Shown here one piece after another: positions 4,408 to 29,898 of a DNA stretch of 40,490 bases; positions within the stretch are counted from its first letter, which is position 1; each line of letters starts with the position of its first letter. The position numbers and the translations under genes are program-made. The notes beneath the pieces are model-generated. The model was not told the DNA's origin. It saw nothing but the letters and a program-made list of their open reading frames with translations, and did not search any database. This DNA comes from an uncultured Gammaproteobacteria bacterium (lineage in GTDB: Bacteria > Patescibacteriota > Patescibacteriia > Magasanikbacterales > GWA2-37-8), in the NCBI GenBank assembly GCA_964535515.1, contig CAZHTA010000004.1:27888-68377 (forward strand), written 5' to 3'.

Positions 4408-6441
4408 ATGGAAGAAAATATCTTGGAAAATCAAGCCGCACCAGCGGTGATACCAACCGACGCCGATATAAACTATTTCGGGTTGGTTAACTATCGTAAT
4501 CAAAATCGTAAGTTTGGTATTAAGACTGATGATCGCCGTCGACATATGTATGTTGTCGGTAAAACCGGTATGGGGAAAACGACGATTTTGGAGAATATGG
4601 TGTTAAATGACATCTACGCCGGACACGGGGTTGGTTTGGTTGATCCGCACGGTGATTTTGCTGAAAAGATTATTGACTATATCCCAGCTAATCGTATCAA
4701 CGATGTCGTATATTTCAATCCCGCGGATATTGATTTCCCGATTGGTTTTAATATTTTAGAAACTGTAAAGGCGGAGCACAAACATTTGGTGGCTTCTGGT
4801 TTGATGGGGGTATTTAAAAAGATCTGGCCAGATGTGTGGAGTTCACGTATGGAATATATCTTGAACAACACCCTTTTGGCATTGTTAGATTATCCTGGTA
4901 CAACTTTGCTTGGTATTAATCGTTTATTAGCCGATGCTGACTATCGTAAGCGCGTCGTGCATAATTTGAAAGATCCAGTAGTAAAAGCTTTTTGGCAAAA
5001 TGAGTTTGCGGCTTACAATGATAAATATCGCCAAGAAGCGGTAGCGCCAATTCAAAACAAAATTGGTCAGTTTTTGTCTGCTTCGGTCATCCGTAATATC
5101 GTCGCTCAAGTAAAATCACGAATTAACATTCGTGAGATTATGGATAGTAAAAAGATTTTTATCATGAACTTGTCTAAAGGAAGAATTGGTGAGGATAACT
5201 CGCGTCTTTTGGGTGGTATGCTTATCACCAAGATTCAGTTGGCAGCCATGGAACGCGTAGACACTCCAGAGAAGGATCGTAAGGATTTCTTTTTGTACGT
5301 TGATGAGTTTCAGAACTTTGCTACTGAGAGTTTTGCCAACATTTTGTCAGAAGCACGTAAATATCGCTTGGATTTGACCATGGCTCATCAGTATATGGAG
5401 CAACTAGAAGAGGAAGTCTTGGCGGCTGTTATCGGTAACGTAGGGAGTATTATCACTTTTCGGGTTGGTTCTACTGATGCAGAGATTTTGGCTAAGGAGT
5501 TTATTCCAACTTTTATTGAAGAAGACTTGATTAATTTACCAAAGTTTCATATTTACCTTAAACTAATGATCGACGGCATTGCTTCGCGACCATTTTCAGC
5601 TTTGACTTTGCCACCGATTGCTCAGACTACCCATAGTGAAGAAAAAGTAATTAAGGTTTCGCGTGAACGTTATGCTGTACCACGTGAAAATATTGAAGAC
5701 AAGATCGCGCGTTGGAGTGGCATGGTGATTATTCCAGAAGATGAAGCGAGCGAATTAGAAGTAGACGAAGAAGAGGAAATGTTTGAGAAACAGGTAAAGA
5801 AAGAAGAAAAGAAAGTGGTGGAAAAGCCAAAAGAAGAAGTGAGATCTGAGTCTAAGCCTGAACCAGCTGTTGTGGTGGAGGATACCGTAAAGCCAGAAGT
5901 TGTACAGGATTTACCAAAGACAGAACCAGCGCGGAATGTTTCAGAACCAATCGTGCAACCGCAGCCAGTTGTTAGACCGGTACAGTCTAGTTCGGCACCT
6001 CAAGTGAATCGGACATCCAATAATATTTCAGGGGGCAATCGAAATGGTGGTCAGGGTAGTAGCCAGAATTTTCAGTCTTCTGGTAAAAAGAAAAAAAAGA
6101 AACACCATAGTAGTCCAGGTGGTGGCACCGCGGTTTCTTTGGTGGATACAAGTCAAAAAGGTATTTCTCTAAATAGTTTAAGTCAAGAAAGAAACGGGGG
6201 AGGACAACAACGTGATCAGCAACGTTCGCAACAGCAGAGCGTGCAGTCTCCGGTAAAGGCACAAGAAGAAAGGAGAGAGGTTCCTCAAGTTCCAGTTGTT
6301 CAAAAACCACTTGGACCAGAGACGATCGGCTTGTTGCCAAAGGAGCAACATCAGAATCCGCCGGTTGGAGTTAAATCTCAATCACCCCATCAGCCAGTAA
6401 CGATTTTGCCTGGTCAGGTTAACAAGGTAGAAGAGAATTAA
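4408..6441 (+). CDS. VirD4/TraG/TraD-like P-loop ATPase (type IV coupling-protein family) with a C-terminal tail of about 240 aa that is low-complexity and rich in E/K/P/Q/S
   Basis: Walker A GKTGMGKTT and Walker B FFLYVDEFQNF. An AHQYMEQL...FRVG region resembles the TraG/TraD C-terminal motif. The tail contains KKKKKKHH, encoded by an A8 run at 6091-6098. Confidence 0.55.
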   Translation: MEENILENQAAPAVIPTDADINYFGLVNYRNQNRKFGIKTDDRRRHMYVVGKTGMGKTTILENMVLNDIYAGHGVGLVDPHGDFAEKIIDYIPANRINDVVYFNPADIDFPIGFNILETVKAEHKHLVASGLMGVFKKIWPDVWSSRMEYILNNTLLALLDYPGTTLLGINRLLADADYRKRVVHNLKDPVVKAFWQNEFAAYNDKYRQEAVAPIQNKIGQFLSASVIRNIVAQVKSRINIREIMDSKKIFIMNLSKGRIGEDNSRLLGGMLITKIQLAAMERVDTPEKDRKDFFLYVDEFQNFATESFANILSEARKYRLDLTMAHQYMEQLEEEVLAAVIGNVGSIITFRVGSTDAEILAKEFIPTFIEEDLINLPKFHIYLKLMIDGIASRPFSALTLPPIAQTTHSEEKVIKVSRERYAVPRENIEDKIARWSGMVIIPEDEASELEVDEEEEMFEKQVKKEEKKVVEKPKEEVRSESKPEPAVVVEDTVKPEVVQDLPKTEPARNVSEPIVQPQPVVRPVQSSSAPQVNRTSNNISGGNRNGGQGSSQNFQSSGKKKKKKHHSSPGGGTAVSLVDTSQKGISLNSLSQERNGGGQQRDQQRSQQQSVQSPVKAQEERREVPQVPVVQKPLGPETIGLLPKEQHQNPPVGVKSQSPHQPVTILPGQVNKVEEN

Positions 6442-6518: not shown

Positions 6519-7973
6519 ATGAAACAAGACTATATCCTCAAACAGCGCAAAAAGAACATGTATATTTTCCCTAATGTTTTTGTGATTGGGCGGGTTTTTA
6601 CGGGCAGTTTGAACAAAATATTGAATGGTAAGAATTTTGGAGAAACAATGTGTATTTACAAGGACGATATGATGTATTGGTATGCTTCGGATAGTATGGT
6701 AAAAGCGGCGGCGCAAGAATTTTTTAAGAAATTAAAAAAGAATTCAAATTTTGTTTCTTCGTCTATTCGTATTTTTTCTAAACGTAGTAATTTTTTTCTG
6801 TCTTGGGTAAAAAAAGTTAGTAAGAGGGATTTATCAAAAATGACCAACAAGGAGCTGGATGTTTTTTGGGATAAGTATTTAGAGCTCTATGAGTCTAGCT
6901 ATATCTATAGTGAAGCATTGGTAATTTGTTTTGAAGAATACCTTTCTGGTCTTTTGTCTTCGTATTTAAAGAAATTAGTAAAAAGTGATACTGAAGCATC
7001 TCGGGTTCAAAATGTTCTTGCTTCGCCTTTGGAAAAATCATTTGTGAAAAGAGAAGAAGATGATTTGTTGAATTTGGCGTTAAAGATTAAAAACGGCAAG
7101 GTGAAGGATGTAGAATTGGCGTTAGAAAAACACGTGGAGAAGTATCAATGGGTGCCGTTTGATTATGGTATGTATATTTGGGATAAAAAATATTTTAAAA
7201 AGATTTTGCAAGGGATGTTAAAAAATGCAGATTTAGAGAATCGGATTGTGGCTAGTAAGAAATATTTGAAGTATTTGTCTTTGGAACAGTTGCGTTTAGA
7301 AAAGGAATTAAAGATTGACAAGCAATACAAAAAATATTTTATGGCGATGCGCCAGACGGGGTATTTGTTAGATTACAAAAAGGAAATTTTTACCCAGATA
7401 CATTTTTATGCAGAGAAGGTATTGGCGGAGACAGGTAAACGTTTGGGTGTAAAAAGAGATCTGGTGCAATATTATTTGCCAGGAGAAATCAAGACTGCCT
7501 TAAAGGAAGGTAAAGTGGTTGGCAAGAAAATATTAGAAGCGAGACAAAAACATTGTTATGTTCGTTGGTTTGATAATAGTATCGAAGCAGTGATAGACAA
7601 GCCGGATAGTTTGTTGGCTAAATTTTTATTAAAAGAAGATCCGACTTCAGCTAAATTTGAGGGTATTATTGCTTCGGCGGGAAAATGTATTGGAAAGGTA
7701 AAGATTTTACATAGTGCGTTAGAAGTAGACAAGGTGAAATTGGGTGATATTTTAGTTGCACCAATGACTAGTCCAGATTATGTTCCGGCGATGCGTTTGG
7801 CTGGGGCAATTATTACTGATGAGGGCGGGGTGATGTGTCACGCGGCGATTGTGTCGCGTGAATTAGGTATCCCGTGTGTGGTTGGTACGAAAAATGCCAC
7901 AAAGTTTTTACATGACGGTGACGAAGTGGAAGTGGATGCTAATCATAATTCGGTGAGGATAATTCGCAGATAG
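6519..7973 (+). CDS. Swivel paralog A: divergent N-terminal module followed by a C-terminal PEP-utilizing-enzyme mobile (phosphohistidine) domain
   Basis: C-terminus DEGGVMCHAAIVSRELGIPCVVGT matches the PEP-utilizers His signature. The N-terminal half contains the family motif HVEKYQW. Confidence 0.7.
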   Translation: MKQDYILKQRKKNMYIFPNVFVIGRVFTGSLNKILNGKNFGETMCIYKDDMMYWYASDSMVKAAAQEFFKKLKKNSNFVSSSIRIFSKRSNFFLSWVKKVSKRDLSKMTNKELDVFWDKYLELYESSYIYSEALVICFEEYLSGLLSSYLKKLVKSDTEASRVQNVLASPLEKSFVKREEDDLLNLALKIKNGKVKDVELALEKHVEKYQWVPFDYGMYIWDKKYFKKILQGMLKNADLENRIVASKKYLKYLSLEQLRLEKELKIDKQYKKYFMAMRQTGYLLDYKKEIFTQIHFYAEKVLAETGKRLGVKRDLVQYYLPGEIKTALKEGKVVGKKILEARQKHCYVRWFDNSIEAVIDKPDSLLAKFLLKEDPTSAKFEGIIASAGKCIGKVKILHSALEVDKVKLGDILVAPMTSPDYVPAMRLAGAIITDEGGVMCHAAIVSRELGIPCVVGTKNATKFLHDGDEVEVDANHNSVRIIRR

Positions 7974-7974
7974 C

Positions 7975-9411
7975 ATGTTAAATAGCAGCGATTCAAAACA
8001 TATTCGTGAAACTAATTGGTATCGCCAAGGTGGGGCGATTAATTTGTTTTATTGTTTTAGTCCGTTTCAATCTATTCGCGAAACCATTGGTTATGATGGT
8101 TGTATTATGTATCAAGAGGATGCTGTTAATACTGCTTTTTTTGAACGAGACAGAGAGGATAAGTTAGCACTTAAATTTATCCGAGCAAGCGGGGAAGACA
8201 AATATTTGGTGGACAGATGGATAAGCGTTTGGCGTATACGCATATTAAAGTTAAATAAGTTTTTAGATAAAAGTTTTTCTAAACCATTGGAAACGTGGTC
8301 TGATGCGGAGTTGGTTAATTTTTTCCATCGTTATGATCATTTGGCTTTAAGTCATTGGAAGAAGGGTGTTTTGTGTGAATGGACTGACCCTAATGGCTGG
8401 AATATAGTAAAGACGGAGGCTTTAAAATATTGCCCTAATCTTAGTGATGAAGATATTAATCTGTTAACATCACCAGAAAAGTTAACTGTAGTGCAGAAAG
8501 AATTAGTTGATCGGTTGGTTTTAATGAAAAAACAAAAGCAGGGTTTAAGTATTGAGCGCGAGCTTAAGAAACATGTTAGTAAATATTTTTGGATTCGCAA
8601 TAATTGGGCGTTTGTTTATGATTTAAAAGAAAAAGATTTTCAAAAGGTTATTAACAAAGAAATGTTAAAGTTGGAGAAAGTTGAAAGACAAGTGAAAGAA
8701 ATTAATGAATATATACGTGAGATTAAGAAAAAGAAAAAGATTTTAATCAAGAAAAAATCAGTACCACGTAAAGTACAAAATGTTTTTTACTTTTTTACTC
8801 AATTAACCGATTGGCGCGATGAGAGGAAAAAATTTGCTGCTTGTTTGCCAAATCATTATTTATATAAAATATTGAAAGTATTGGCGAAGAGAAATAATAT
8901 TTCTGAGGAGTTGGTTGGTTTATTAATATGGTTTGAAATTAGTGGTTGGAAATTATCTGTAAAAACAATAGATAATTTAAAAAGACGAGGGCAGGGCTGG
9001 ATCTATTATTGTCGTAAAAATAAACAATGCCAACAAGTTTATGGTAGTGAGGCAAAAAAGATTTTTAATGATTTGGTTAAGGCGTTAGATAAAGGTGAAT
9101 TGCGAGGGTTAATAGCAAACAAGGGTGTTGTGATTGGTAAAGCGAAGATTGTGGAAGTACAAGCTGATTTTAGTAAAGTAAAAAAAGGGGATATTATTGT
9201 TGCTAACATGACGCGCCCAGATTATGTACCGATTATGAAATTGGCAGGTGGAATAATTACCAATGAGGGAGGGATTACTTGTCACGCGGCAATTGTTAGT
9301 CGTGAGTTAAATATTCCTTGTATAATTGGGACACAGGTGGCTACGGATGTTTTAAAAGACGGTGATGTTATAGAAGTTGATGCGGATAATGGTGTAATTA
9401 GAAAAAAATAA
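7975..9411 (+). CDS. Swivel paralog B: N-terminal module plus PEP-utilizer phosphohistidine domain
   Basis: NEGGITCHAAIVSRELNIPCIIGT and KHVSKYFW. Starts 1 nt after paralog A. Confidence 0.7.
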   Translation: MLNSSDSKHIRETNWYRQGGAINLFYCFSPFQSIRETIGYDGCIMYQEDAVNTAFFERDREDKLALKFIRASGEDKYLVDRWISVWRIRILKLNKFLDKSFSKPLETWSDAELVNFFHRYDHLALSHWKKGVLCEWTDPNGWNIVKTEALKYCPNLSDEDINLLTSPEKLTVVQKELVDRLVLMKKQKQGLSIERELKKHVSKYFWIRNNWAFVYDLKEKDFQKVINKEMLKLEKVERQVKEINEYIREIKKKKKILIKKKSVPRKVQNVFYFFTQLTDWRDERKKFAACLPNHYLYKILKVLAKRNNISEELVGLLIWFEISGWKLSVKTIDNLKRRGQGWIYYCRKNKQCQQVYGSEAKKIFNDLVKALDKGELRGLIANKGVVIGKAKIVEVQADFSKVKKGDIIVANMTRPDYVPIMKLAGGIITNEGGITCHAAIVSRELNIPCIIGTQVATDVLKDGDVIEVDADNGVIRKK

Positions 9412-9414
9412 TTT

Positions 9415-10890
9415 ATGCAAGATATTAATAGGTTGACTGAGAAAGATTGGTATTTTCAAGGGTTCAATGGTGTCCCAGCTCTTTTGTATGGTCCCGCTTG
9501 GTCTATGGCGCGTGATATGCCAAAATTTTTAGGTTTTGGCTATTCTGTTTGTGTTGAATATTTCACTAAGGATGTTTGTTATTATCTATATTCTTGGGAT
9601 GATTTATATAAAATTCATGATGAATTATTAAAACGTGTTAAACGCGACAAAAATTATTTGCGTTATTTATCAAAATCAGATGAATGTTTATGTAAAGAAG
9701 TGATTAAAGAATATAAAATTTTAGGTGGGAAAGATTGGTGCAGTGCTTCCATAAAAGAATTATTTTCGGGTTGGCGTAAAGCCAATGATTTATATGCGCA
9801 TCTTTTAGGGGTTTCGCATATTGTAGAAGGGTTTAGTTTAACCACAGAAGATCGAATTAGAGCTTTGATTAATGAAGTTTTTCCTAATGATTCCGGAGCT
9901 TTGTCGTTGCTCACTACTCCCAAGACGCATTCTTTTATGTCTATTGAGCACTATGAGTTATGTTTAATAGCTCATGGTGTTAAACGTATTAAATTGGGTA
10001 AGTGTACTGTTGAAAATATTTTGGTTAATAAGGTGATAAATAAAAAAATATGTCTTCATCAGGAGAAATATTATTGGAAATTAAATGGTTATACGTCGGC
10101 TAAGTTTCTAGACGACAAGTATTTTGCCAAAGAAATATGTGGTTTGTTAAACAAGAAAGTTAATTTTGAAAAATTTATTCATGATTTTGAAAATTTGTCC
10201 AAAAGATTAGATGGAAAAAAGAAACTTCTTAAAAAAGTGAAAAATCAAGAATTACTTGATTTATTAAAAATTTCTGATGCGTTGTTTGTGATCCACGATC
10301 GTCGTAAAGAGCATATGACGCAATCAATTACTTATTTGGAATTAATTTTAAGTGAGATTGCTAAGCGATTTAAAATACCTTTATCTGATTTGCACTATAT
10401 TCGTCCGTCAGAGTTAGAAAAGTTACCTAAGATTTGGTCGGAGTTAAAAAAGAGGAAAGAACATAGCATATACATTTTATATCCAGAAGGAGAGATGCCA
10501 GTATTAACTGGTTTAAAAGCAAAAAAATATTTTGAAAAAATTGAAAAGAATAAAAAATTAGATAAGATTTCGGAGATTAAAGGGAATGGTGCGTCGCCAG
10601 GAAAAGTAAGAGGCGTAGTTAAGGTGTGCCGCGGTGAAAAAGAATTAGGTAAAATGAAAGAAGGAGATATTCTCGTGGCGTGTATGACACAGCCTGAATT
10701 TTTACCGGCTTTGAGAAAAGCTAAGGCCGTCATTACTGATGAGGGTGGTTTGACTTGTCATGCTGCGATAGTGGCAAGGGAGTTAGGAATTCCTTGTGTG
10801 ATTGGAACAAAAGTAGCTACTAAAGTTTTAAAAGATGGTGATATGGTAGAAGTTGATGCGGATAATGGTATAATTAGGAGAATAAAATAG
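9415..10890 (+). CDS. Swivel paralog C: N-terminal module plus PEP-utilizer phosphohistidine domain
   Basis: DEGGLTCHAAIVARELGIPCVIGT and QEKYYW. Confidence 0.7.
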   Translation: MQDINRLTEKDWYFQGFNGVPALLYGPAWSMARDMPKFLGFGYSVCVEYFTKDVCYYLYSWDDLYKIHDELLKRVKRDKNYLRYLSKSDECLCKEVIKEYKILGGKDWCSASIKELFSGWRKANDLYAHLLGVSHIVEGFSLTTEDRIRALINEVFPNDSGALSLLTTPKTHSFMSIEHYELCLIAHGVKRIKLGKCTVENILVNKVINKKICLHQEKYYWKLNGYTSAKFLDDKYFAKEICGLLNKKVNFEKFIHDFENLSKRLDGKKKLLKKVKNQELLDLLKISDALFVIHDRRKEHMTQSITYLELILSEIAKRFKIPLSDLHYIRPSELEKLPKIWSELKKRKEHSIYILYPEGEMPVLTGLKAKKYFEKIEKNKKLDKISEIKGNGASPGKVRGVVKVCRGEKELGKMKEGDILVACMTQPEFLPALRKAKAVITDEGGLTCHAAIVARELGIPCVIGTKVATKVLKDGDMVEVDADNGIIRRIK

Positions 10891-10960
10891 TTCTTTAAAA
10901 CACAAGCACCCGACCGAAGTCGAGTGCGTTGTGCACGTTGTTGGGGCCTGCTCCAATGAG

Positions 10961-11452
10961 CTAGGCCAGTCGCGTCGCGGTACCGTCGCCGAGGTGGAGC
11001 TCGTACACGGCGCTGCTCGCAGCCTCGAGCTTGAGGCTCTCGAGCACCGGACGTCCGGCCACGAGGACGACGTCCGGGCTGCCCTCGGCGAGGATCAGCA
11101 TGCCGTACGTTTCCCGCAGGTGCATGAGCGTGGCTTCGCGGGACGGCATTCGGAACCGGTCCAACGTCGTCTGCGCGTTGCAGGCGAGCGCGATGTTCCA
11201 CCCTCCGTTGCCGTTGGGGACGCCCGAGCTGGGGTCACCCAGCATGGGATCGTACCACTCGATCTCCTGGAAGATGTCCAGCGCCTCGGCCGTGTCGATG
11301 TGACGCCGGGCGGTCCCGCAGAAGACTCGACGCTTGTCGGGGAGGGGCAGGTGCGGTACGAGCCGTTCGATCTCGCTTCTTCCTTTGCTCGTGAGACCGG
11401 GGTCCGCACCGGGACCCTTCGAACCGTGGGTGATCAATAGGACTCGCGCCAT
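10961..11452 (-). CDS. High-GC foreign ORF of 163 aa on the opposite strand, with a weak histidine-phosphatase-like pattern (THG in place of RHG). Function unknown.
   Basis: Open frame with very high GC3 across the whole island and a strong SD (GGAGAAcgagagATG), unlike native genes. Protein begins MARVLLITHGSKGPGADPGLTSKGRSEIERL and contains VFCGTARRHIDTAEAL. The listed 198-aa ORF starts at an upstream in-frame codon; the SD supports the MARV start. Confidence 0.4.
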   Translation of the reverse strand: MARVLLITHGSKGPGADPGLTSKGRSEIERLVPHLPLPDKRRVFCGTARRHIDTAEALDIFQEIEWYDPMLGDPSSGVPNGNGGWNIALACNAQTTLDRFRMPSREATLMHLRETYGMLILAEGSPDVVLVAGRPVLESLKLEAASSAVYELHLGDGTATRLA

Positions 11453-11605
11453 CTCTCGTTCTCCTATGGTTGTGCGACACGCTGTCGCTTGGTCCCAAAT
11501 AAACGTGCAGTTTGTTTCAGATAGTGCTCGGATTTGGTTAAATCCAGGCAAAATCATGGTACCAAACGTTTCAGTATAGTATATTTTCGCTGTTTTGTCA
11601 ATATT

Positions 11606-13087
11606 ATGTACAAATCACCTCAATTTAAATCAAATAAACTAGAACTTACGGTTAGTCGTCCGTATGTTCCTTTGTGTGCTAACTATTTTTTCCAAAGCTA
11701 CAGTAATCCAGAATATTTTAAGAAGTTTTATAAAATTAACTTTTTTACTCGTTTATTAGCAATTAATGCGGATTTTTATTATGGCCTAGAAGCAAAAGAT
11801 TTTGGCTATGTTCTTTTTGGACAAGCGGCAAAGTATGGTAGTCATAGTAAAATTAAAAAGAAAAATCTTAAGGGTATTTTGCACATTTTTGATCGGACCT
11901 ATAAATTTGGTGATTCGTTATTGGAATTTACTTTGCAAGTTAAGAAAACAGATTTTTCTGAATATTCAAAGAAGCAATTATTAGAGGTGTTTGGAAAATT
12001 TTCGAAAGATTATGTTGTTTTTTGTACTGCTTTATTGGGTATGAATATGCAGTATGTTGTCGAAGATGGTTTGCGTGAGTTTCTACGAAGTGATAAAAAC
12101 GCAGAAGAGGAGCTTGCGATTTTGACTTTTCCTGATAAACAAAATGTTCTTGTTCAAGAACTAATGGACTTATTGCGTTTACGAATTAAATTAGAAAAAG
12201 TTGGTGTTAAGAATTTGGAAAAATGTAAGACCAAGGAGCTTGGCTTACTAAAGAAGCATGTTGATAAGTACGGTTGGATCAATGCTCGTGGTGCCATTAA
12301 TGAAGGATGGACGGTAAAAGAGGTTTTTGATCGGGCGATGGCAGAAAAGAATTGTGCTAAACGTTTGGTTGAGATAGTTAAGAATCAAAAAGAGCATCAA
12401 AAACAAGTTCGAGATATATTTAAAACAAAAAAACCTAATGCGGAAATTAGGGATTTAATAAAAATCGCCAAAGAGCTGGTATATTTTCGCACCTACCGTA
12501 CAGATTATCTTAATTGGATGTTTTTTAATATTCGTCCTTTATTAAATGCGTTGGCAGGTAAGATGGGTATTAGTTTTGAGGATATTATATATTATCTACC
12601 AAAAGAAATCATGACTAAGAAAAAAGTGTCTGAAAAAGAGGTTGTTCGTCGCAAGGAAGGTTACGCGATATTGTTAGCTAAACCTTATGAGGTATTATTC
12701 TCCTCTGATCCTAAGAAAATATTGGAATGGAAAAAGAAACATACTGAGGTATTAGGTGGCAATGTTACGGAAGTTAAGGGTATGTCTGCATACAAAGGTA
12801 TTGTTCGTGGTAAGGCTGTGTTGGTATTGAAAAAGGCTGATATGGTAAAGGTTAAGTCGGGGGATGTTTTAATCACTTTTATGACTACGCCAGATATGGT
12901 ATCGGTTATGCAGAAAGCAATAGCGTTTGTTACTGATGAGGGTGGTATTACATGCCATGCGGCGATTGTAGCACGGGAGATGAAGAGACCGTGTGTAACA
13001 GGGACCAAAATTGCTACTAAGGTTTTTAAAGATGGCGATGAAGTAGAAGTGGATGCGAATACTGGTGTAGTGAAAATTATTAAATAA
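11606..13087 (+). CDS. Swivel paralog D: N-terminal module plus PEP-utilizer phosphohistidine domain
   Basis: DEGGITCHAAIVAREMKRPCVTGT and KHVDKYGW. The listed ORF starts at a TTG (11534) inside the island; the first ATG is at 11606 (MYKSPQFK). Confidence 0.65.
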   Translation: MYKSPQFKSNKLELTVSRPYVPLCANYFFQSYSNPEYFKKFYKINFFTRLLAINADFYYGLEAKDFGYVLFGQAAKYGSHSKIKKKNLKGILHIFDRTYKFGDSLLEFTLQVKKTDFSEYSKKQLLEVFGKFSKDYVVFCTALLGMNMQYVVEDGLREFLRSDKNAEEELAILTFPDKQNVLVQELMDLLRLRIKLEKVGVKNLEKCKTKELGLLKKHVDKYGWINARGAINEGWTVKEVFDRAMAEKNCAKRLVEIVKNQKEHQKQVRDIFKTKKPNAEIRDLIKIAKELVYFRTYRTDYLNWMFFNIRPLLNALAGKMGISFEDIIYYLPKEIMTKKKVSEKEVVRRKEGYAILLAKPYEVLFSSDPKKILEWKKKHTEVLGGNVTEVKGMSAYKGIVRGKAVLVLKKADMVKVKSGDVLITFMTTPDMVSVMQKAIAFVTDEGGITCHAAIVAREMKRPCVTGTKIATKVFKDGDEVEVDANTGVVKIIK

Positions 13088-13117: not shown

Positions 13118-14200
13118 ATGGAAAGAGGACCAAGTTTAAGGCCAGAGGATATGCTAGTTGGCAATGATGGGGTGGATCAGAAAGCGCGAGGTGTAATTGA
13201 ATCACGTGATAGCGCCGTAGCTCATAATATTGAGCGTGGGGAAGGCTTATCATCTTCGCGTGTTGTTTTGGAGTTTATGCGTCATGGTAAAAAAGAAAAA
13301 GCGCCAGGCAAAGATGATCGTGATATACGCATTGTTCCGGAAGCGCGTGTGGCAGCAACGGAAAAAGGTAAAAAATTAGGAGCGCAAGCTGAGGTGTCGG
13401 TTGTTTATGCTAGTCCGCGTAACCGTACTCAGGAATCTGCTGGCCGAGTTGCTTTGGGTAATCAATCAGAAATTACTGCGGATATGAGCTTAGAGGATAT
13501 TATGGTTAAAACAATGGAGCATAATGCTATTTTAATGCCTGATCAGTTAGAACGTTTGCGCGAGCTGTTGTCTCATCCAATGGAAGAATTAAATGCTGAA
13601 GAAAAGAAGGAGCTAAAACTTTTGTCGAGTAAAGGTAAAAAAATCATGGTTGATGAACGTTTGGATTTTACTGATGAAACAGAGGAGGGTCTAAAAGCTT
13701 TTATGGCTGGTCGTTATTTAGATCATGCTGTAAAGGATAGTGATCAGTTGGCAATTGCAAAGCATGATACTAAATTATCTACCTATACTCGTTCGGCTGG
13801 TAAGATCGCGGAGATTGTTTCTAAATATATTCAGGTGGGTAAAAATTTTAACAAAAGAGTAAGTGTTGATCCAGAGAAATATAAAAAATTCGGTAATCAA
13901 TTAGAAAGATATTTTGGTTCACACCAAGGTGTTGTAGAATGTTTTTTGTTGAAAGCAATCGAGAAAATAAAAGGTGTAAAAGAGCGTGATGAGATTTTGG
14001 CTTTGATGCCAGCAGGTTTTAAAGAGTTACAAGGTGTAAGGATTGGCATTGAGAACAATGGCAAAGGAGAACAGGTGATTGTTTTAGATGCCGAAGTTGA
14101 AGGAAGAAAGATTAATTTAGAATTAACCCCAGAGATTTTAATGGGTATGGTTAGTGATAGAGATGTGCTGGATGAACAATGTAAGAGTAGTGTGGAGTAA
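13118..14200 (+). CDS. Histidine phosphatase superfamily (PGAM/SixA-like, RHG motif) protein
   Basis: VLEFMRHGKKE (RHG), then VPEAR..A.EKGKKLG, VVYASPRNRTQESA (SP..R..Q.A) and a distal GSHQGVVE resembling the second catalytic His region. Confidence 0.55.
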   Translation: MERGPSLRPEDMLVGNDGVDQKARGVIESRDSAVAHNIERGEGLSSSRVVLEFMRHGKKEKAPGKDDRDIRIVPEARVAATEKGKKLGAQAEVSVVYASPRNRTQESAGRVALGNQSEITADMSLEDIMVKTMEHNAILMPDQLERLRELLSHPMEELNAEEKKELKLLSSKGKKIMVDERLDFTDETEEGLKAFMAGRYLDHAVKDSDQLAIAKHDTKLSTYTRSAGKIAEIVSKYIQVGKNFNKRVSVDPEKYKKFGNQLERYFGSHQGVVECFLLKAIEKIKGVKERDEILALMPAGFKELQGVRIGIENNGKGEQVIVLDAEVEGRKINLELTPEILMGMVSDRDVLDEQCKSSVE

Positions 14201-14210: not shown

Positions 14211-15281
14211 ATGTCTATCGTTCCTGATAAATTTTTAAAAGGAGAGTGTTGGCTGAAAGATTGGGCGGGTCAGTGGGATCTTTTTATTTGTTTTTATTCA
14301 GGAGAAGATTATACCACCTTACTTAAAAAGTGGTTGGGTATTAATTTTGATAAATGTCTTTTTATTTATCACGATGGGTTTGTGGAGTGTTATTTAAATA
14401 AAAGATGTTTAGATATTTTGGGTAGAGAGATTAACGCGAGGGTTAAAGAGGATGTTTTGTGGATTGATAGGAATTGTAAAGATCTTAAAAAGAATACACA
14501 AATTTTCCTAAAATATTTTGCTGAGCATAAAAACGATTTGGTTGCGGAAGAGACATTGAAGAAGTTTTTGCAGTTGGTTAGCAATTGTTTTGCTGCGTAT
14601 ATTTCTAATAAATTAGCATTTGATTATTTGTCAGCAGATATATTAAAGAAAAAATGGAATGTGATGGAATCGGCACGTGTATACTCAGAATCGGTTTATA
14701 CGGCGTGTATAGAGTTTGTTCACAATTGGGGTAAACAAATGGCGAAAAAAGTTAAGATACCAAAGGATCTCTTTCTTTGTTGTTCGTTAAATGAAATTGA
14801 AACTTATTATCGATCGGGTAGATTACCAAGTGTTAGCGAGTTAAAGCGACGGTATTCGTTTAATGTGATACTTTCACAGAATGGTCAGAGTTTTTTATTG
14901 ACTGGCTCAGAGGCTAAGGCTGTTGAGAAAAAGATTATTAGTTCATTTGGCGACAGTAAAACCATTAAAGGCACCTGTGCCTATCCGGGGAAAGTAACGG
15001 GGCGGGTTAGAATTGTTTTTGATCCTAAAAAGATAAAAGATTTTAAAGATGGGGATATCTTGGTAACACCGATGACGCGACCGGAGTATCTTTCTCTAGT
15101 TAAAAAATCCGCTGGTTTTATTACTGATGCTGGCGGTATGCTTTCTCACGCCGCTATTACAGCGCGCGAGTTAAAGAAGCCGTGCGTGGTAGGTACCCAA
15201 GTGGCTACGCGTTTGTTAAAAAATGGAGATGAGGTGGAAGTGGATGCCAACAAAGGGATAGTTAATGTGATTAAAAGATAA
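14211..15281 (+). CDS. Swivel paralog E: shorter N-terminal module plus PEP-utilizer phosphohistidine domain
   Basis: DAGGMLSHAAITARELKKPCVVGT (Ser replaces the usual Cys before the His). First non-overlapping ATG is at 14211; the listed ORF begins at 14154. Confidence 0.6.
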   Translation: MSIVPDKFLKGECWLKDWAGQWDLFICFYSGEDYTTLLKKWLGINFDKCLFIYHDGFVECYLNKRCLDILGREINARVKEDVLWIDRNCKDLKKNTQIFLKYFAEHKNDLVAEETLKKFLQLVSNCFAAYISNKLAFDYLSADILKKKWNVMESARVYSESVYTACIEFVHNWGKQMAKKVKIPKDLFLCCSLNEIETYYRSGRLPSVSELKRRYSFNVILSQNGQSFLLTGSEAKAVEKKIISSFGDSKTIKGTCAYPGKVTGRVRIVFDPKKIKDFKDGDILVTPMTRPEYLSLVKKSAGFITDAGGMLSHAAITARELKKPCVVGTQVATRLLKNGDEVEVDANKGIVNVIKR

Positions 15282-15288: not shown

Positions 15289-16839
15289 ATGAAGGTGCTA
15301 AAAACTTTTCCTTTGGCTTTGACCAAAAAAACTGCTAGTCAGTTTAATAAGGCGTTTCATGCCAAGTTATTTACTTTGTTTGCTTCTTCGATGAGTGAAC
15401 TAATGCAGTTGGCTAAGGATTTTCCTGTGCATTATAAACATTGTTTGTGTTTTATTAAAGATGATTTAGGCCAGTGGTTTTTGGGCGCAGATAGCATCGA
15501 AAGAGTTAGGCGGTATATCATAAAAAAAGCTGATGAGGATTTTTCTCAGATAAATAAATATTATTTACGTTGGCAGAAAGACTGGGGTAAGTTTTTAATA
15601 TTAAACAGAAAATTAATTAGTTCAGATTTTAGTTCTTTGACTGACAAGCGGTTGTATAAAGTTTTTGATGAGTTTTATGATCTATATTTAAAAGTAGGTG
15701 GTGTGGCATATATTAGTGATGCCTTTATGTCCTCTGGGGAAAAAGATTGGCTGCAAGAGGTTATAAACCAAGAATTAAAACGCATTTATAAAGATATTGA
15801 AAAAGTAAAAAGGGTGGCGGCGGATTTGATTTCGCCAGTTCATCTTTCTTTTGTTTTGGAAGAAGAACTTGAATTATTAAAACTAGCTCCGGCGTTTATT
15901 AATCTTACTGGTAAATTGGTGGGTTTTAATAAGTTGTCCGCTAAACAACTAGCGCAGCTGGAACGTCATGCTGACAAATATTATTGGATGAATAATAACT
16001 ACTATAACGTAGAATTTTACGATGCATTTTCAGTATATACACATCTGGTCAATCTTTTAGATGGTTTGCAACAAGAAAAACGTAGCCTTAGTGATTTTTT
16101 GGCGGAGAGACAGCGCGAATTAAAGGAAAATAAAACGAGGCGTGAGGGGTTGATTAGTGATATTAAGCTACCAAAAAAGATTAAGAGCTTAATTCGGGTA
16201 GCTAATTTGTTTAGCAAGTGGAAAGACGTTCGGAAAAGTGGTGTGTATCGTGGCATGGCAATTTTTGATAAATTTTTGGGCGAGATAGCAATGCGTACTG
16301 GTTATACAAAAAAGGAAATTACTTTTTTAGTTTTTCCGGAGTTCAAGGATTTATTGTTAAATAGAAAAGATTTTCGGTTGGTTATAAAAGATCGTCAAAA
16401 GCAAATATTTTTTGTGGTGCGTCCGCACGACTATCTTTTGGTTAGCGGTCAAAAGGCGGATAAATATTTTGCTTGTTTGTCCGAAGGACTCAATGCTGAG
16501 ATGAAAGAATTCAAAGGAGCAGTGGCCTCCAAAGGAATCGCGCGCGGGGTGGTGCGGATGATAAGGAAAACAGAAGAGATGAAAGACTTTAAAAAAGGTG
16601 AAATTTTAGTTACCAACAATACTACACCAGAGTTTGTTCCAATCATGAAAAAGGCCGCAGCGATCATTACTGAACAAGGTGGTATAACCTCACATGCTGC
16701 TGTAGTTTCGCGTGAATTGCGTAAGCCGTGTATTATTGGTGTTAAAGGTATTACAACCATTTTAAAAACAGGGGTAGAGGTTGAAGTAGATGCTAATCAT
16801 GGTATAATTAAGATTATTAATAAAAGTTTAAAGAAATAA
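15289..16839 (+). CDS. Swivel paralog F: N-terminal module plus PEP-utilizer phosphohistidine domain
   Basis: EQGGITSHAAVVSRELRKPCIIGV and ERHADKYYW. Confidence 0.7.
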   Translation: MKVLKTFPLALTKKTASQFNKAFHAKLFTLFASSMSELMQLAKDFPVHYKHCLCFIKDDLGQWFLGADSIERVRRYIIKKADEDFSQINKYYLRWQKDWGKFLILNRKLISSDFSSLTDKRLYKVFDEFYDLYLKVGGVAYISDAFMSSGEKDWLQEVINQELKRIYKDIEKVKRVAADLISPVHLSFVLEEELELLKLAPAFINLTGKLVGFNKLSAKQLAQLERHADKYYWMNNNYYNVEFYDAFSVYTHLVNLLDGLQQEKRSLSDFLAERQRELKENKTRREGLISDIKLPKKIKSLIRVANLFSKWKDVRKSGVYRGMAIFDKFLGEIAMRTGYTKKEITFLVFPEFKDLLLNRKDFRLVIKDRQKQIFFVVRPHDYLLVSGQKADKYFACLSEGLNAEMKEFKGAVASKGIARGVVRMIRKTEEMKDFKKGEILVTNNTTPEFVPIMKKAAAIITEQGGITSHAAVVSRELRKPCIIGVKGITTILKTGVEVEVDANHGIIKIINKSLKK

Positions 16840-16840: not shown

Positions 16841-17827
16841 ATGCCAAAAGTTTCTCATATTAAGTTTTTTAAGAATATCTCTAAAAGTGATGTTGATATT
16901 GCTGGTGGTAAGGGTGCGTCTTTAGGTGAGATGACACAAGCCAAGATTCCAGTACCAAATGGTTTTGTGGTTTTAGCCGCAGCCTTTGATCGTTTTTTAG
17001 AAGAGACACAATTAAAAGAGGAAATTGTGGCACGGCTAAAGGAAGTTAACCCAGAAGATACTAATTCGGTTGATCGTATTAGTGCGGTTATTCGTGATGC
17101 GATTCATGATCGGTCAATGCCTAAAGATTTGCAGAAAGAAATTTTAGGAGCATTTACTAAGTTAGATGCTAAATTTGTGGCTGTACGTTCATCGGCTACA
17201 GCAGAGGACTCATCTGTTGCTAGCTGGGCAGGGGAGCTGGAGAGTTATTTAAATACGAGTAAAAAAGATTTGATTGAACGGGTGCGTCGTTGTTGGTCGT
17301 CGTTGTTTACTCCGCGTGCTATTTTTTATCGTCATGAAAAAGGGTTAATTGACCATTATGTCTCAGTAGCGGTAGTAGTACAAAAAATGGTGCAGTCAGA
17401 AATTTCTGGCATTGCTTTTACTGTTCATCCAGTAACGGAAGATTATGACCAGATGATTATTGAAGCGGGGTATGGTTTGGGTGAAGCGATTGTCTCTGGA
17501 CAAATTACACCTGATAGCTATGTGATTAGCAAGGGTAGTATGGAGATTATGGATACTTATGTTAGTTCACAAGCTCGTCAGTTAATTCGTAAGAAATCTG
17601 CTAAGAGCAAAGGGGATGAAGAAAACACTTCAAATGAGTGGGTAAATTTAGGTAAAAAAGGTGAAAAACAAAAGGTCGACAACAAAACGGTCTTGGCCCT
17701 GGCCAAAGTATTTAAACGGATTGAGGACCATTACAAGTTTCCGTGTGATATCGAATGGGCTATGGAAAAGAAAAAAATATATATTACCCAAAGTCGTCCG
17801 ATTACTACTTTAAAGAAGAAAAAGTAG
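16841..17827 (+). CDS. Stand-alone PEP synthase / pyruvate phosphate dikinase N-terminal nucleotide-binding (ATP-grasp, PPDK_N-like) domain protein
   Basis: DVDIAGGKGASLGEM, VAVRSSATAEDSSVASWAGELESY, ISGIAFTVHPVT and ITQSRPIT are motifs of the PEP synthase/PPDK/rifampin-phosphotransferase ATP-binding domain. There is no swivel or PEP-binding domain in this ORF. It starts 1 nt after paralog F. Confidence 0.75.
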   Translation: MPKVSHIKFFKNISKSDVDIAGGKGASLGEMTQAKIPVPNGFVVLAAAFDRFLEETQLKEEIVARLKEVNPEDTNSVDRISAVIRDAIHDRSMPKDLQKEILGAFTKLDAKFVAVRSSATAEDSSVASWAGELESYLNTSKKDLIERVRRCWSSLFTPRAIFYRHEKGLIDHYVSVAVVVQKMVQSEISGIAFTVHPVTEDYDQMIIEAGYGLGEAIVSGQITPDSYVISKGSMEIMDTYVSSQARQLIRKKSAKSKGDEENTSNEWVNLGKKGEKQKVDNKTVLALAKVFKRIEDHYKFPCDIEWAMEKKKIYITQSRPITTLKKKK

Positions 17828-17852: not shown

Positions 17853-18974
17853 ATGAAAGGAAATAGCAGGTTAGTGATAATTAGTTTAGCGTTATTAGTG
17901 CTTGGTGTTTTAAGTCGTAGTGCTTACTTAATTATCTTTGGTATTATTGGTTTGTATATTACTTACAAAAAGAATCAGGCCAGTTATCCAACAGGAACGA
18001 ATTTCCTGGTGGTCATATTTTCTGACCTATTGGATGAATTAAAAAAGAAATATCCACAATTTAATTTGGATAAGTTTTTACATAATATAAAAGTCAACAA
18101 AGTCGATGATAATCAAAATGTTAATTTTAATCGTATGCCTTTGAATAATGCCGGTAGTGCCAAAAAAGTTTTGGGGATAATTTTTGGTGTTATTATCTTA
18201 GTAATTTTAGTTGCTAAGTTTGTTATTGTTATCCCTGCTGGATATGTTGGTGTTTACAACCTGTTTGGTAAAGTAAGTGATCGACCGTTGTATTCAGGTT
18301 TGAATTTTGTTAACCCACTTGGTTCGGTAGAAAAGATGGATGTCAGAATCCAGGATTACACCATGAGTATCGCTCCTAACGAAGGAGCAAAAACAGGGGA
18401 CGATTCGATTTATGCCCTCAGTAAAGAAGGTTTAAGTGTTTCGTTGGACATTACCGTTCTTTATCGTTTGTCTCAAGAAAAAGCACCAGTATTGTTTAAA
18501 GAGATTGGACAGAACTATAGTGAAATTGTTGTTCGTCCAGAAATTCGTAGTGCGATTCGTGAGATAGTGGCCACTTATGATGTAAAAGATATTTATTCAG
18601 AAAAACGAGCGGAAGCTAATCAAAAACTTGTTGATTTACTAAAGAGTAAAGTTGAGCCACGCGGGATAATTATTGAGGAAGTGTTGTTACGTAATGTTCA
18701 GTTGCCAAAAAATTTAGCGGACAGTATTGAGTTAAAATTACAGTCCGAACAAGAAGCTCAGCGTTATGATTTCTTGCTTGAGCAAGAAACAAAAGAAGCG
18801 GAGAGGAAAAGGATCGAAGCTGCTGGCCAGCGAGATTCACAGAAGATTATTAGCGAAGGTTTAACTCCGGCATACTTGCAGTATCTGTATATTACTAGCT
18901 TGAAAGACCGTCAGGGCACGATATATATCCCAACTAATCCAAGCAATGGTTTGCCATCTTTTAAAGGTCTTTAG
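17853..18974 (+). CDS. SPFH/band-7 (prohibitin/HflKC-like) membrane protein
   Basis: N-terminal TM segments plus an SPFH core (VIPAGYVGVYNLFGKV...LNFVNPLGSVEKMDVRIQ) and a coiled-coil C-terminus. Confidence 0.7.
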   Translation: MKGNSRLVIISLALLVLGVLSRSAYLIIFGIIGLYITYKKNQASYPTGTNFLVVIFSDLLDELKKKYPQFNLDKFLHNIKVNKVDDNQNVNFNRMPLNNAGSAKKVLGIIFGVIILVILVAKFVIVIPAGYVGVYNLFGKVSDRPLYSGLNFVNPLGSVEKMDVRIQDYTMSIAPNEGAKTGDDSIYALSKEGLSVSLDITVLYRLSQEKAPVLFKEIGQNYSEIVVRPEIRSAIREIVATYDVKDIYSEKRAEANQKLVDLLKSKVEPRGIIIEEVLLRNVQLPKNLADSIELKLQSEQEAQRYDFLLEQETKEAERKRIEAAGQRDSQKIISEGLTPAYLQYLYITSLKDRQGTIYIPTNPSNGLPSFKGL

Positions 18975-28395: not shown

Positions 28396-28803
28396 ATGAC
28401 TAAAGTTGCGAAAAAAACTGATGAGAATCGCGCTGTCGGTCGTCGCAAGCGCGCTTCCGCTCGGGTACGTATTACAAAAGGAGAAGGCAAGATTGTTGTG
28501 AATGGAAAAGATTTTAAAGTATATTTTCCACACTTTTCACAGCAAGATGCTGTCATGGCACCATTAGTCGCTTTGGCTAAAGAAAAAGATTTGGATGTTT
28601 CGGTCAAAGTAGTTGGTGGCGGCAAGAAGGGTCAGTCTGTGGCTGTAGGCCATGGTATTGCCCGGGCTTTAGTGGTTTGGAACGAAGAGTTCAAGAAAAC
28701 CCTAAAGACACTTGGTCTTCTTACTCGTGATTCACGTATTAAGGAAAGAAAGAAATTTGGTTTGAAGAAAGCTAGACGTGCACCACAGTGGTCAAAGCGT
28801 TAA
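28396..28803 (+). CDS. rpsI: 30S ribosomal protein S9
   Basis: GGGKKGQSVAVGHGIARAL and C-terminal KRAPQWSKR. Confidence 0.9.
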   Translation: MTKVAKKTDENRAVGRRKRASARVRITKGEGKIVVNGKDFKVYFPHFSQQDAVMAPLVALAKEKDLDVSVKVVGGGKKGQSVAVGHGIARALVVWNEEFKKTLKTLGLLTRDSRIKERKKFGLKKARRAPQWSKR

Positions 28804-28829
28804 GCTGTTATATATTTTCAAAAGAAAAT

Positions 28830-28853
28830 CCTCCGGAAACGGAGGCTTTTTTT
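28830..28853 (+). terminator. Rho-independent terminator with a GAAA tetraloop
   Basis: cctccg GAAA cggagg followed by T8. Confidence 0.65.
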
Positions 28854-28857
28854 ATCT

Positions 28858-28886: not shown

Positions 28887-28897
28887 ACAGGGGAAAT

Positions 28898-29893: not shown

Positions 29894-29898
29894 TTGGT

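What the first reader, a model, noticed from the sequence alone, without database searches (positions are those of the whole stretch)
13118..14200. Histidine-phosphatase-fold (RHG) gene embedded between the swivel paralogs
The only non-paralog gene inside the operon, between D and E, carries the RHG...SP..R..Q.A pattern of the phosphoglycerate-mutase/SixA histidine phosphatase superfamily (EFMRHGKKE, VVYASPRNRTQESA, distal GSHQG). It has long family-atypical insertions and a coiled, charged C-terminal half. Established: SixA-type enzymes remove phosphate from phospho-His carriers (HPt, NPr). Inference: it could reset or discharge the phospho-His swivel domains, or act on the phosphorylated product. 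That would make the operon a complete phosphorylation/dephosphorylation module.
Basis: partly seen in the sequence, partly recalled or inferred. Interest (0 to 1): 0.6.

Follow-up and report, generated by a model that had tools for sequence, protein, structure and literature searches.

The report
Dikinase-linked histidine phosphatase of CPR bacteria
The gene is a real, catalytically intact but very divergent histidine-phosphatase-fold enzyme that in ultra-small (CPR/Patescibacteria) bacteria almost always sits beside genes of a split ATP-dependent phosphate-transfer (dikinase) system; it most likely removes the phosphate that system puts on a small molecule, and a reset of the phospho-histidine carrier itself is not excluded.

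Summary

Of 37 non-redundant family genes with enough flank, 34 have a swivel or ATP-grasp gene within 150 nt and 37 within 2 kb. Seventeen abut a short (about 355 aa) swivel paralog, as here. The operon is a split rifampin-phosphotransferase/PpsAB/HpeHI-type dikinase with many acceptor subunits.

Fusions of the phosphatase to M20 and FGase amidohydrolases point to a metabolite (product) phosphatase (about 0.45). So do a HAD phosphatase in the same slot of a second locus in this window, and the HpeHI-HpeD precedent. The gene-cluster association appears undescribed.

The parts
13118..14200 (+). Histidine-phosphatase-fold gene (360 aa), the subject of the finding
13118..13252 (+). N-terminal extension of about 45 aa, predicted disordered. 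Shared only with close relative P0005; most family members start about 20 aa before strand 1
   Evidence: pLDDT <50 for residues 1-8 and 11-41; alignment A1
13280..13288 (+). R55-H56-G57: predicted nucleophile His and first phosphate-pocket Arg, at the end of strand 1
   Evidence: R 187/189 and H 188/189. G is variable (G 102, D 34, S 30, A 16)
13412..13441 (+). SPRNRTQESA (residues 99-108): the canonical SPxxRAxQTA-type motif with the second pocket Arg, R103
   Evidence: R103 188/189, E106 158/189; aligned to branch-1 structures in the PDB profile search
13454..13897 (+). Helical cap (about residues 113-260), interrupted by core strand 176-178 (KKIMVDERLDF). Carries family-invariant polar residues K175, S208, D209 and D217
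13493..13582 (+).
   Evidence: Gap analysis of alignment A1; pLDDT 69-80
13901..13930 (+). LERYFGSHQG (residues 262-271): core strand ending in the second catalytic His, H269. R264 is a family-specific invariant
   Evidence: H269 184/189, R264 187/189; strand 261-268
14211..15281 (+). Short swivel paralog E (356 aa from ATG 14211; the ORF opens at GTG 14154 and overlaps the phosphatase stop). Truncated RPH-like substrate domain plus phospho-His swivel domain; the most frequent immediate neighbour of the phosphatase
6519..13087 (+). Long swivel paralogs A (6519-7973), B (7975-9411), C (9415-10890) and D (11534-13087). N-terminal domain of about 400 aa plus a C-terminal swivel domain with the catalytic His retained
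   Evidence: PF00391 E 1e-23 to 4e-28; the His is invariant in alignment A2; the profile matches RPH 5fbs/5hv1 beyond the swivel domain
15289..16839 (+). Long swivel paralog F
   Evidence: PF00391
16841..17827 (+). Stand-alone ATP-grasp (PPDK_N) subunit; presumed common phosphoryl donor for all swivel proteins
   Evidence: PF01326 E 1.1e-95; matches the N-termini of PEP synthase, RPH and PigC
4408..6441 (+). TrwB/VirD4/HerA-like P-loop ATPase upstream of the array. A recurrent neighbour; its role is unknown
   Evidence: PF10412 and PF01935; homologues lie next to HisPhos/swivel clusters in L001, L008, L009, L013, L017 and L018
33469..36561 (+). Second, analogous locus: swivel protein (33469-34830), HAD_2 phosphatase (34844-35461), short swivel protein (35467-36561). 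A non-homologous phosphatase sits in the same slot
   Evidence: Pfam; the short paralog's best match is the HisPhos-adjacent short paralog of L017

Best explanation
The gene encodes an active histidine-phosphatase-superfamily enzyme of a Patescibacteria-restricted subfamily. It combines branch-1 catalytic motifs with a large, acid-phosphatase-like helical cap. It is a dedicated accessory of a split, RPH/PpsAB/HpeHI-type dikinase.

Proposed mechanism:
1. The stand-alone ATP-grasp protein (16841-17827) charges the catalytic His of the swivel proteins from ATP.
2. Each swivel protein passes the phosphate to a hydroxyl of a small molecule bound in its own N-terminal domain.
3. The phosphatase uses His56 as nucleophile in the R55/R103/H269 pocket to hydrolyse the resulting phosphomonoester, either directly or after another enzyme has processed it. 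Its preferred source is probably the product of the adjacent short swivel paralog.

Phosphate would thus serve as a transient handle, as in the Hpe and Cre pathways.

Shown: the fold, conservation of the catalytic residues, and genomic coupling.
Inferred: enzymatic activity, the nature of the substrate, and the direction of flux.
For: - Fold and catalytic set.
- Coupling: 34 of 37 non-redundant loci have a swivel or PPDK_N gene within 150 nt, 31 of them on the same strand, often overlapping.
- Minimal operon: PPDK_N -> HisPhos-FGase -> swivel in L024/L025.
- The dikinase is RPH-like and split. HpeHI, CreHI and PpsAB are characterised split homologues acting on small phenolic molecules (PMC12167813).
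- Metabolite direction:
  (i) Two independent fusions of this phosphatase to small-molecule amidohydrolases: Peptidase_M20 in P0187 and N-formylglutamate amidohydrolase in P0205, the latter seen on 5 contigs. M20 genes are also embedded in swivel array L021.
  (ii) A HAD_2 phosphatase occupies the same swivel-phosphatase-short-swivel slot in the window's second locus, and a HAD gene lies next to HisPhos in L006.
  (iii) The Hpe cluster encodes a HAD phosphatase, HpeD, that dephosphorylates the processed kinase product (PMC9618137).
Against: - The window's operon contains no obvious enzyme that would process a phosphorylated intermediate. Kinase plus product phosphatase alone would be a futile cycle.
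- One phosphatase serves up to six or more paralogs with divergent substrate domains. This is more economical if it acts on the shared swivel domain.
- Very tight, often overlapping gene junctions are also what a protein-protein partnership would give.
- No substrate is identified.
- The general acid was not identified.
- Fusion partners and HAD phosphatases are circumstantial. At least one HAD enzyme (LHPP, from my own knowledge) acts on phospho-His.
Confidence: 0.45

Rival explanations
1. Phospho-His (or adjacent phospho-Thr/Ser) protein phosphatase. The enzyme discharges the phosphorylated swivel domains, resetting or throttling the dikinase or phosphorelay. It resembles SixA acting on NPr, HPt domains and the catalytic phospho-His of Ndk.
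For: - Universal, often overlapping adjacency to swivel genes.
- One phosphatase per array of many paralogs whose only strongly shared part is the swivel domain.
- L013 fuses the ATP-grasp and four swivel modules into one 1875-aa protein with the phosphatase gene immediately after it.
- A Fic protein modifier is embedded in arrays L001 and L008.
- SixA precedents include discharge of a catalytic phospho-His intermediate (PMC7948535, PMC6282199, PMC12934123).
- A PPDK-derived regulatory His kinase exists (VadK, PMC13400623).
Against: - Fusions to M20 and FGase metabolite amidohydrolases are hard to rationalise for a protein phosphatase.
- Most swivel arrays and most short-swivel genes (more than 1100 relatives, including DPANN archaea) lack this phosphatase.
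- Phospho-His hydrolysis would waste ATP without an evident signal.
Confidence: 0.3
2. Phosphoryl-transfer component rather than hydrolase. His56 accepts phosphate from the short swivel paralog (a His-to-His relay) and passes it to an acceptor bound under the cap. Alternatively, the protein acts as a mutase that moves the phosphate on the kinase product, as dPGM-type members of the superfamily do.
For: - The superfamily works through a covalent phospho-His enzyme and includes true mutases (established knowledge).
- There is specific pairing with a swivel paralog whose substrate domain is truncated: about 250 aa against about 400 aa.
- The gene order ATP-grasp -> HisPhos -> swivel in L024 looks like a three-subunit enzyme.
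Against: - There is no direct evidence.
- About half of the loci pair the phosphatase with long paralogs only.
- Split homologues HpeHI and PpsAB need no third catalytic subunit (PMC12167813).
Confidence: 0.1
3. An ordinary metabolic phosphatase whose real pathway is elsewhere, for example flavin metabolism (an ARPP or FMN-type phosphatase). Under this view the swivel adjacency reflects conserved synteny rather than shared function.
For: - Flavokinase, riboflavin synthase, lumazine synthase or FAD-synthetase-like genes lie next to or inside the cluster in L003, L005, L019, L040 and L056.
- Nitroreductase (a flavoprotein) lies between HisPhos and swivel genes in L054 and L060.
Against: - Flavin genes are absent near the window's gene and from most loci.
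- The swivel/ATP-grasp association is essentially universal across distant lineages and gene orders.
- A fusion partner lies inside a three-gene dikinase operon.
Confidence: 0.07

Closest known systems
SixA phosphohistidine phosphatase (E. coli; histidine phosphatase superfamily branch 1)
   Different: SixA is about 160 aa and capless. This protein is 360 aa (the family is about 300 aa), with a helical cap of about 150 aa and an extra C-terminal beta-meander. No SixA sequence model was matched. The fusion partners are metabolite amidohydrolases.
HpeD (NagD-like HAD phosphatase) of the HpeHI two-component dikinase pathway; the CreHI pathway is analogous
   Same: A phosphatase encoded in the same cluster as a split ATP-grasp plus substrate/swivel dikinase. 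It removes the phosphate the kinase installed, so phosphate acts as a transient handle (PMC9618137, PMC12167813). The window's second locus even uses a HAD phosphatase.
   Different: The fold is different (HAD against histidine phosphatase). The Hpe cluster also encodes the enzyme that acts between the kinase and phosphatase steps (a carboxylase); no such enzyme is visible in this operon. Here there are six acceptor subunits rather than one.
Branch-2 histidine acid phosphatases (prostatic acid phosphatase, phytases, MINPP, PPIP5K phosphatase domain)
   Different: No PF00328 hit. The sequence motifs are branch 1. There is no HD motif after the second His (HQG). No RHGxRxP proline.
Small-molecule branch-1 phosphatases (CobC alpha-ribazole phosphatase, PhoE, RosC, the riboflavin-pathway HFP)
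   Different: Scores are far below any equivalog cut-off (22.9 against 162.9 bits). Those enzymes are about 200 aa with a small cap. Sequence similarity is confined to the first roughly 85 residues of the domain.
Glucan water dikinase with SEX4/LSF2 phosphatases (plant starch)
   Same: A swivel-His dikinase and a dedicated phosphatase form a phosphorylate/dephosphorylate cycle on one substrate (own knowledge; GWD mechanism in PMC13553574).
   Different: The phosphatases there are dual-specificity (Cys) enzymes, and the substrate is a polymer. There is no evidence here for a glycan substrate, apart from the envelope-glycan context of the window's second locus.

Membership tests
Histidine phosphatase superfamily, branch 1 (Pfam PF00300) | RHG motif at the end of strand 1, supplying the nucleophilic His and the first pocket Arg | tested here: met
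   R55-H56-G57. R 187/189 and H 188/189 across family representatives; aligned to RHG of PDB branch-1 enzymes
Histidine phosphatase superfamily, branch 1 (Pfam PF00300) | Second pocket Arg in the SPxxRAxQTA-type helix start | tested here: met
   S99-P-R-N-R103-T-Q-E-S-A108; R103 188/189
Histidine phosphatase superfamily, branch 1 (Pfam PF00300) | Second conserved His directly after a core beta-strand | tested here: met
   H269 follows strand 261-268 in the model; 184/189.
Histidine phosphatase superfamily, branch 1 (Pfam PF00300) | Score above the curated Pfam threshold | tested here: met
   26.0 bits against 21.7, E 8.4e-6, but covering only residues 53-136 = profile positions 3-88 of 194
Histidine phosphatase superfamily, branch 1 (Pfam PF00300) | Alpha/beta phosphoglycerate-mutase-like fold | tested here: met
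Histidine phosphatase superfamily, branch 1 (Pfam PF00300) | General acid (Glu after the RLxE loop in branch 1) | tested here: inconclusive
   The DERLDF loop has F184 where PhoE-type enzymes have Glu (my reading). Candidate acids D209 (185/189), D217 (170/189) and E274 (178/189) are conserved, but no coordinates were available to place them
Histidine phosphatase superfamily, branch 1 (Pfam PF00300) | Phosphomonoesterase or mutase activity through a phospho-His enzyme | not testable with these tools
   Needs an enzyme assay with H56 and H269 mutants
SixA phosphohistidine phosphatase family | Minimal, capless domain of about 160 aa | tested here: not met
SixA phosphohistidine phosphatase family | Match to a SixA sequence model | tested here: not met
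   An NCBIfam scan at E<=10 returned only cobC (22.9 bits), PRK07238 and a DUF721 model
SixA phosphohistidine phosphatase family | Dephosphorylates phospho-His proteins | not testable with these tools
   Needs a 32P-labelled swivel protein assay
Histidine acid phosphatases, branch 2 (Pfam PF00328) | RHGxRxP and HD sequence motifs; PF00328 match | tested here: not met
   The motifs are RHGKKE (K59 at the R position, no Pro) and H269-Q-G. No PF00328 hit at E<=0.1
Histidine acid phosphatases, branch 2 (Pfam PF00328) | Large alpha-domain capping the active site | tested here: met
Two-component (split) RPH/PpsAB/CreHI/HpeHI-type dikinase (the operon the gene belongs to) | Separate ATP-grasp subunit, plus a subunit with an RPH-like substrate domain and a C-terminal swivel domain retaining the catalytic His | tested here: met
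Two-component (split) RPH/PpsAB/CreHI/HpeHI-type dikinase (the operon the gene belongs to) | ATP + substrate + H2O -> phospho-substrate + AMP + Pi | not testable with these tools
   The substrate is unknown; needs biochemistry

The most novel reading that the evidence does not exclude
The swivel array is a PTS-like phosphoryl network charged by a single ATP-grasp subunit. Under this reading the capped phosphatase is its built-in phospho-His partner, acting either as a discharge valve for the shared swivel domains or as a terminal His-to-His acceptor that hands phosphate to a ligand under its cap. That would be the first phospho-His-directed enzyme built on an acid-phosphatase-like capped scaffold. 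It would also add a new three-component logic (ATP-grasp / swivel carrier / histidine-phosphatase-fold protein) that is widespread in CPR bacteria.
Probability: 0.2. Interest if true: 0.75.

Novelty: new variant of a known kind. Interest (0 to 1): 0.55.

Why it matters
CPR/Patescibacteria and DPANN genomes are tiny, yet they spend many genes on arrays of phospho-His swivel proteins: six or more here and at least eleven in L021. The substrates of these proteins are unknown.

This phosphatase family is the most consistent non-paralog partner of those arrays. Its fusions (M20, FGase), its neighbours (flavin genes, nitroreductase) and its substitutes (HAD) are the first handles on what the arrays phosphorylate.

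A three-protein reconstitution is now directly testable: ATP-grasp 16841-17827, short swivel 14211-15281 and phosphatase 13118-14200. It would show whether a histidine-phosphatase-fold enzyme acts on a metabolite or on a catalytic phospho-His.

The family also blurs the branch-1/branch-2 division of the superfamily, combining branch-1 motifs with a branch-2-like cap.

Tried and rejected
- **SixA membership:** rejected on size, cap and absence of a model hit.
- **Pseudo-enzyme:** rejected because the catalytic tetrad is kept in at least 97% of 189 representatives.
- **Known defence system:** PADLOC gave nothing for the phosphatase, the swivel proteins or the ATP-grasp. It gave only generic P-loop hits for the TrwB-like ATPase.
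- **Mobile element or plasmid context:** rejected. The window carries ribosomal proteins, RpoA, AlaRS and MnmA.
- **PDB by sequence with the single protein:** only noise.
- **afdb50 fold library:** unavailable.
- **Source record of P0001:** not on record. Cluster look-up gave no names.
- **The two HAD phosphatases (window 34844-35461 and L006):** not specifically related, so HAD recruitment was independent.
- **C-terminal tails of other long family members** (P0182, P0262, P0266, P0288, P0296, P0300): unrelated to each other and not swivel domains.
- **GC island ORF:** no homologue in the protein database, plasmids or phages. No RNA family or tRNA. No flanking repeats.
- **Literature:** four full-text searches found no paper describing this phosphatase-dikinase association.
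- **Model coordinates:** not exposed to scripts. Pocket geometry and the general acid could therefore not be examined.

Full report
**1. The observation**

An ORF runs from ATG 13118 to TAA 14198-14200 on the + strand and encodes 360 aa. It lies between swivel paralog D (11534-13087) and paralog E. E's ORF opens at 14154, but its likely start is ATG 14211, 10 nt after the phosphatase stop. The quoted motifs are at residues 52-60 (EFMRHGKKE), 95-108 (VVYASPRNRTQESA) and 267-271 (GSHQG).

Pfam PF00300 (His_Phos_1) is passed with 26.0 bits against a cut-off of 21.7 (E 8.4e-6). However, only residues 53-136 match, against the first 88 of 194 profile positions. NCBIfam gives only a weak alpha-ribazole phosphatase hit, 22.9 bits against a 162.9 cut-off. 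Sequence searches of the PDB, with the single protein or with a family profile, reach only the first ~70 residues of the domain in branch-1 enzymes.

**2. The family and its catalytic residues**

A word-indexed search found 49 relatives, mostly 290-315 aa. The few that are named come from Patescibacteria. An exhaustive HMM search of 1.84 billion cluster representatives found 473 clusters at E<=1e-3, 353 at <=1e-10 and 235 at <=1e-30. Genome-collection loci come from Magasanikbacteria, Doudnabacteria, Kuenenbacteria, Portnoybacteria, Paceibacterota and bins labelled Saccharibacteria.

In a 27-sequence alignment the invariant positions include R55, H56, R103, E106, R264 and H269. Across 189 near-full-length representatives the counts are:

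| Residue | Conserved (of 189) |
|---|---|
| R55 | 187 |
| H56 | 188 |
| R103 | 188 |
| H269 | 184 |
| R264 | 187 |
| S208 | 188 |
| D209 | 185 |
| E274 | 178 |

The G of RHG is variable: G 102, D 34, S 30, A 16. This is therefore an enzyme family, not a decayed domain.

The window's protein carries an N-terminal extension (most of it absent from all but one of the 26 aligned homologues; shared with P0005) and a private 30-aa insert at residues 126-155.

**3. Structure**

The best matches are branch-2 enzymes, which was unexpected:

The 'atypical insertions' therefore form a helical cap of roughly 150 aa (about residues 113-260, interrupted by core strand 176-178) that resembles the alpha-domain of acid phosphatases. 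The sequence motifs remain branch 1: there is no PF00328 hit, no HD motif and no RHGxRxP proline.

The C-terminal half is not a coiled tail. It has pLDDT >90 and contains cap helices, the H269 strand, two helices, a three-strand meander and a terminal helix.

**4. Genomic coupling**

I fetched 65 loci through exact-protein look-ups and pattern scans. I then scored their ORFs with HMMs built from this window: the phosphatase, the swivel C-domain, the short-paralog N-domain and PPDK_N.

After collapsing phosphatases that are >=90% identical, 37 genes have at least 1.5 kb of flank on one side. The results for these 37 are:
- 34 have a swivel or PPDK_N gene within 150 nt, and 31 of those are on the same strand.
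- The other three have one within 305-1856 nt.
- 17 of 37 abut a short swivel gene (<=385 aa) and 5 abut a PPDK_N gene.

The N-domain of the window's short paralog E finds its best matches in the phosphatase-adjacent short paralogs of L015, L019, L005 and L012. One of three randomly chosen contexts of short-paralog homologues (L020) turned out to have an unannotated family member directly upstream. That member has an RHD motif and scores E 3e-83 against the family HMM.

Informative architectures:
- **L024/L025:** a three-gene unit of PPDK_N, phosphatase-FGase fusion and swivel.
- **L013:** one 1875-aa protein comprising PPDK_N plus four swivel modules, followed immediately by the phosphatase gene.
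- **L005:** two phosphatase copies flanking a short swivel gene.

**5. What the operon is**

All six paralogs in the window keep the catalytic His (GGxxC/SHAA). Their profile matches Listeria rifampin phosphotransferase (5fbs, 5hv1) over profile positions 262-500, which extends well beyond the swivel domain.

This is the architecture of the characterised two-component dikinases HpeHI, CreHI and PpsAB. In those systems a separate ATP-grasp subunit charges a substrate-binding/swivel subunit, which then phosphorylates a small phenolic molecule (PMC12167813). The difference here is that one ATP-grasp gene accompanies many acceptor genes. The short-paralog family is large (more than 1100 relatives) and extends into DPANN archaea. 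Most arrays, such as L021 with at least 11 swivel genes, lack the phosphatase.

**6. What the phosphatase most likely does**

Four lines of evidence favour a metabolite or product phosphatase:
- **(a) Fusions.** Two independent fusions join this phosphatase to small-molecule amidohydrolases: Peptidase_M20 in P0187 and N-formylglutamate amidohydrolase in P0205, the latter on five contigs. M20 genes are also embedded in array L021.
- **(b) A substitute phosphatase.** In the window's own second locus, a HAD_2 phosphatase (34844-35461) sits between a swivel gene (33469-34830) and a short swivel gene (35467-36561). That short gene's closest relative is the phosphatase-adjacent short paralog of L017. 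L006 has HAD and histidine phosphatase genes side by side.
- **(c) A precedent.** The Hpe pathway encodes a HAD phosphatase, HpeD, that removes the kinase-installed phosphate after the intermediate has been carboxylated (PMC9618137).
- **(d) The cap.** The capped, acid-phosphatase-like architecture has conserved polar cap residues.

Three points count against this reading. No processing enzyme is visible in this operon. One phosphatase serves many divergent paralogs. The very tight gene junctions would equally suit a protein partner.

It is strengthened by evidence that SixA discharges NPr and even the catalytic phospho-His of Ndk (PMC7948535, PMC6282199, PMC12934123), and by Fic genes in arrays L001 and L008.

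My estimates are:

| Reading | Estimate |
|---|---|
| Product/metabolite phosphatase | ~0.45 |
| Phospho-His (or neighbouring phospho-Thr) phosphatase | ~0.30 |
| Relay or mutase role | ~0.10 |
| Unrelated metabolic phosphatase, e.g. flavin pathway | ~0.07 |

The general statement that this is an active histidine phosphatase functionally tied to the dikinase is about 0.9.

**7. Novelty**

Superfamily membership is already recognised by automated annotation ('histidine phosphatase family protein'). Several things appear undescribed in four full-text searches:
- the subfamily itself, with its branch-1 motifs and branch-2-like cap;
- its near-obligate linkage to split dikinase genes;
- its preferential pairing with the short swivel paralog;
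- its fusion partners.

I rate it a new variant of a known kind, with interest 0.55.

**8. Limits**

All functional statements are inferred. The structures are predictions. Contigs are short and lineages are not fully independent, so the counts overstate the number of independent events.

Noticed in passing
window 10905-11480 (minus-strand ORF 11452->10961): A 65.6% GC island lies in a ~36% GC operon, exactly filling the gap between swivel paralogs C and D. Its 163-aa minus-strand ORF (MARVLLITHGSKG...) has codon-position GC of 0.67/0.49/0.85, typical of a real high-GC gene. It has a sub-threshold PF00300 hit (E 0.0049) with THG in place of RHG and no second His. No homologue was found anywhere, and there are no flanking repeats. 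It is either an assembly chimera or a very recent foreign insertion.
   Followed up: partly
window 33469-36561: A second dikinase-type locus reads swivel protein, HAD_2 phosphatase, short swivel protein. It is embedded in a cell-envelope glycan cluster: two FemAB genes, a flippase, GT4, GT2 and Wzy_C at 28778-39500. A non-homologous phosphatase occupies the slot the histidine phosphatase has in the first locus.
   Followed up: partly
L013 4288-9915: A single 1875-aa protein fuses the ATP-grasp domain with four consecutive substrate-domain/swivel modules (four PF00391 stretches). The phosphatase gene follows immediately at 9947-10888.
   Followed up: partly
L021 1-17062; L022 3135-5224: Swivel-gene arrays can be very long: at least 11 PF00391 genes in 17 kb, interrupted by two Peptidase_M20 genes and an OTCase-like gene. 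Close homologues of the short paralog also occur in DPANN archaea (Nanoarchaeota, Micrarchaeota). Most of these arrays lack the histidine phosphatase.
   Followed up: partly
P0187 (L023 373-2643); P0205 (L024 2156-4045): Natural fusions join the phosphatase to Peptidase_M20 (756 aa) and to N-formylglutamate amidohydrolase (629 aa). The latter lies between a PPDK_N gene and a swivel gene, with a Peptidase_C39 gene upstream.
   Followed up: yes
L056 6994-8536; L003 7667-9564; L005 1-669; L040 4810-6011; L019 12529-12924: Flavin genes (flavokinase, riboflavin synthase, lumazine synthase, FAD-synthetase-like) lie beside the phosphatase/swivel clusters in five loci. In L056 they lie inside the cluster, between the phosphatase and PPDK_N. 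A nitroreductase lies between the phosphatase and swivel genes in L054 and L060. There are no such genes near the window's locus.
   Followed up: partly
window 4408-6441; L001 7841-9904; L008 5008-6945; L013 13754-16489; L017 12957-15530; L018 3644-6352: A TrwB/VirD4/HerA-like P-loop ATPase recurs next to phosphatase/swivel clusters in several lineages. Its connection to the dikinase system, if any, is unknown.
   Followed up: no
L001 13933-14991 (also L008): A Fic-domain protein is embedded between swivel genes of the Magasanikbacteria arrays.
   Followed up: no
L005 8000-8896 and 10001-10936; L003 4279-4905 (minus): L005 has two copies of the phosphatase family flanking one short swivel gene. 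L003 has an additional 208-aa His_Phos_1 protein (21.8 bits) on the opposite strand, next to the family member.
   Followed up: no
L020 5496-12362: A minimal pair (phosphatase with RHD instead of RHG, plus a short swivel gene) sits between a pyruvate kinase gene and a full-length three-domain PEP synthase/PPDK gene. There is no stand-alone ATP-grasp gene within 8 kb.
   Followed up: no
window 17853-18974: An SPFH/Band-7 membrane protein gene lies immediately after the ATP-grasp gene, on the same strand. It was not seen in the other loci examined.
   Followed up: no
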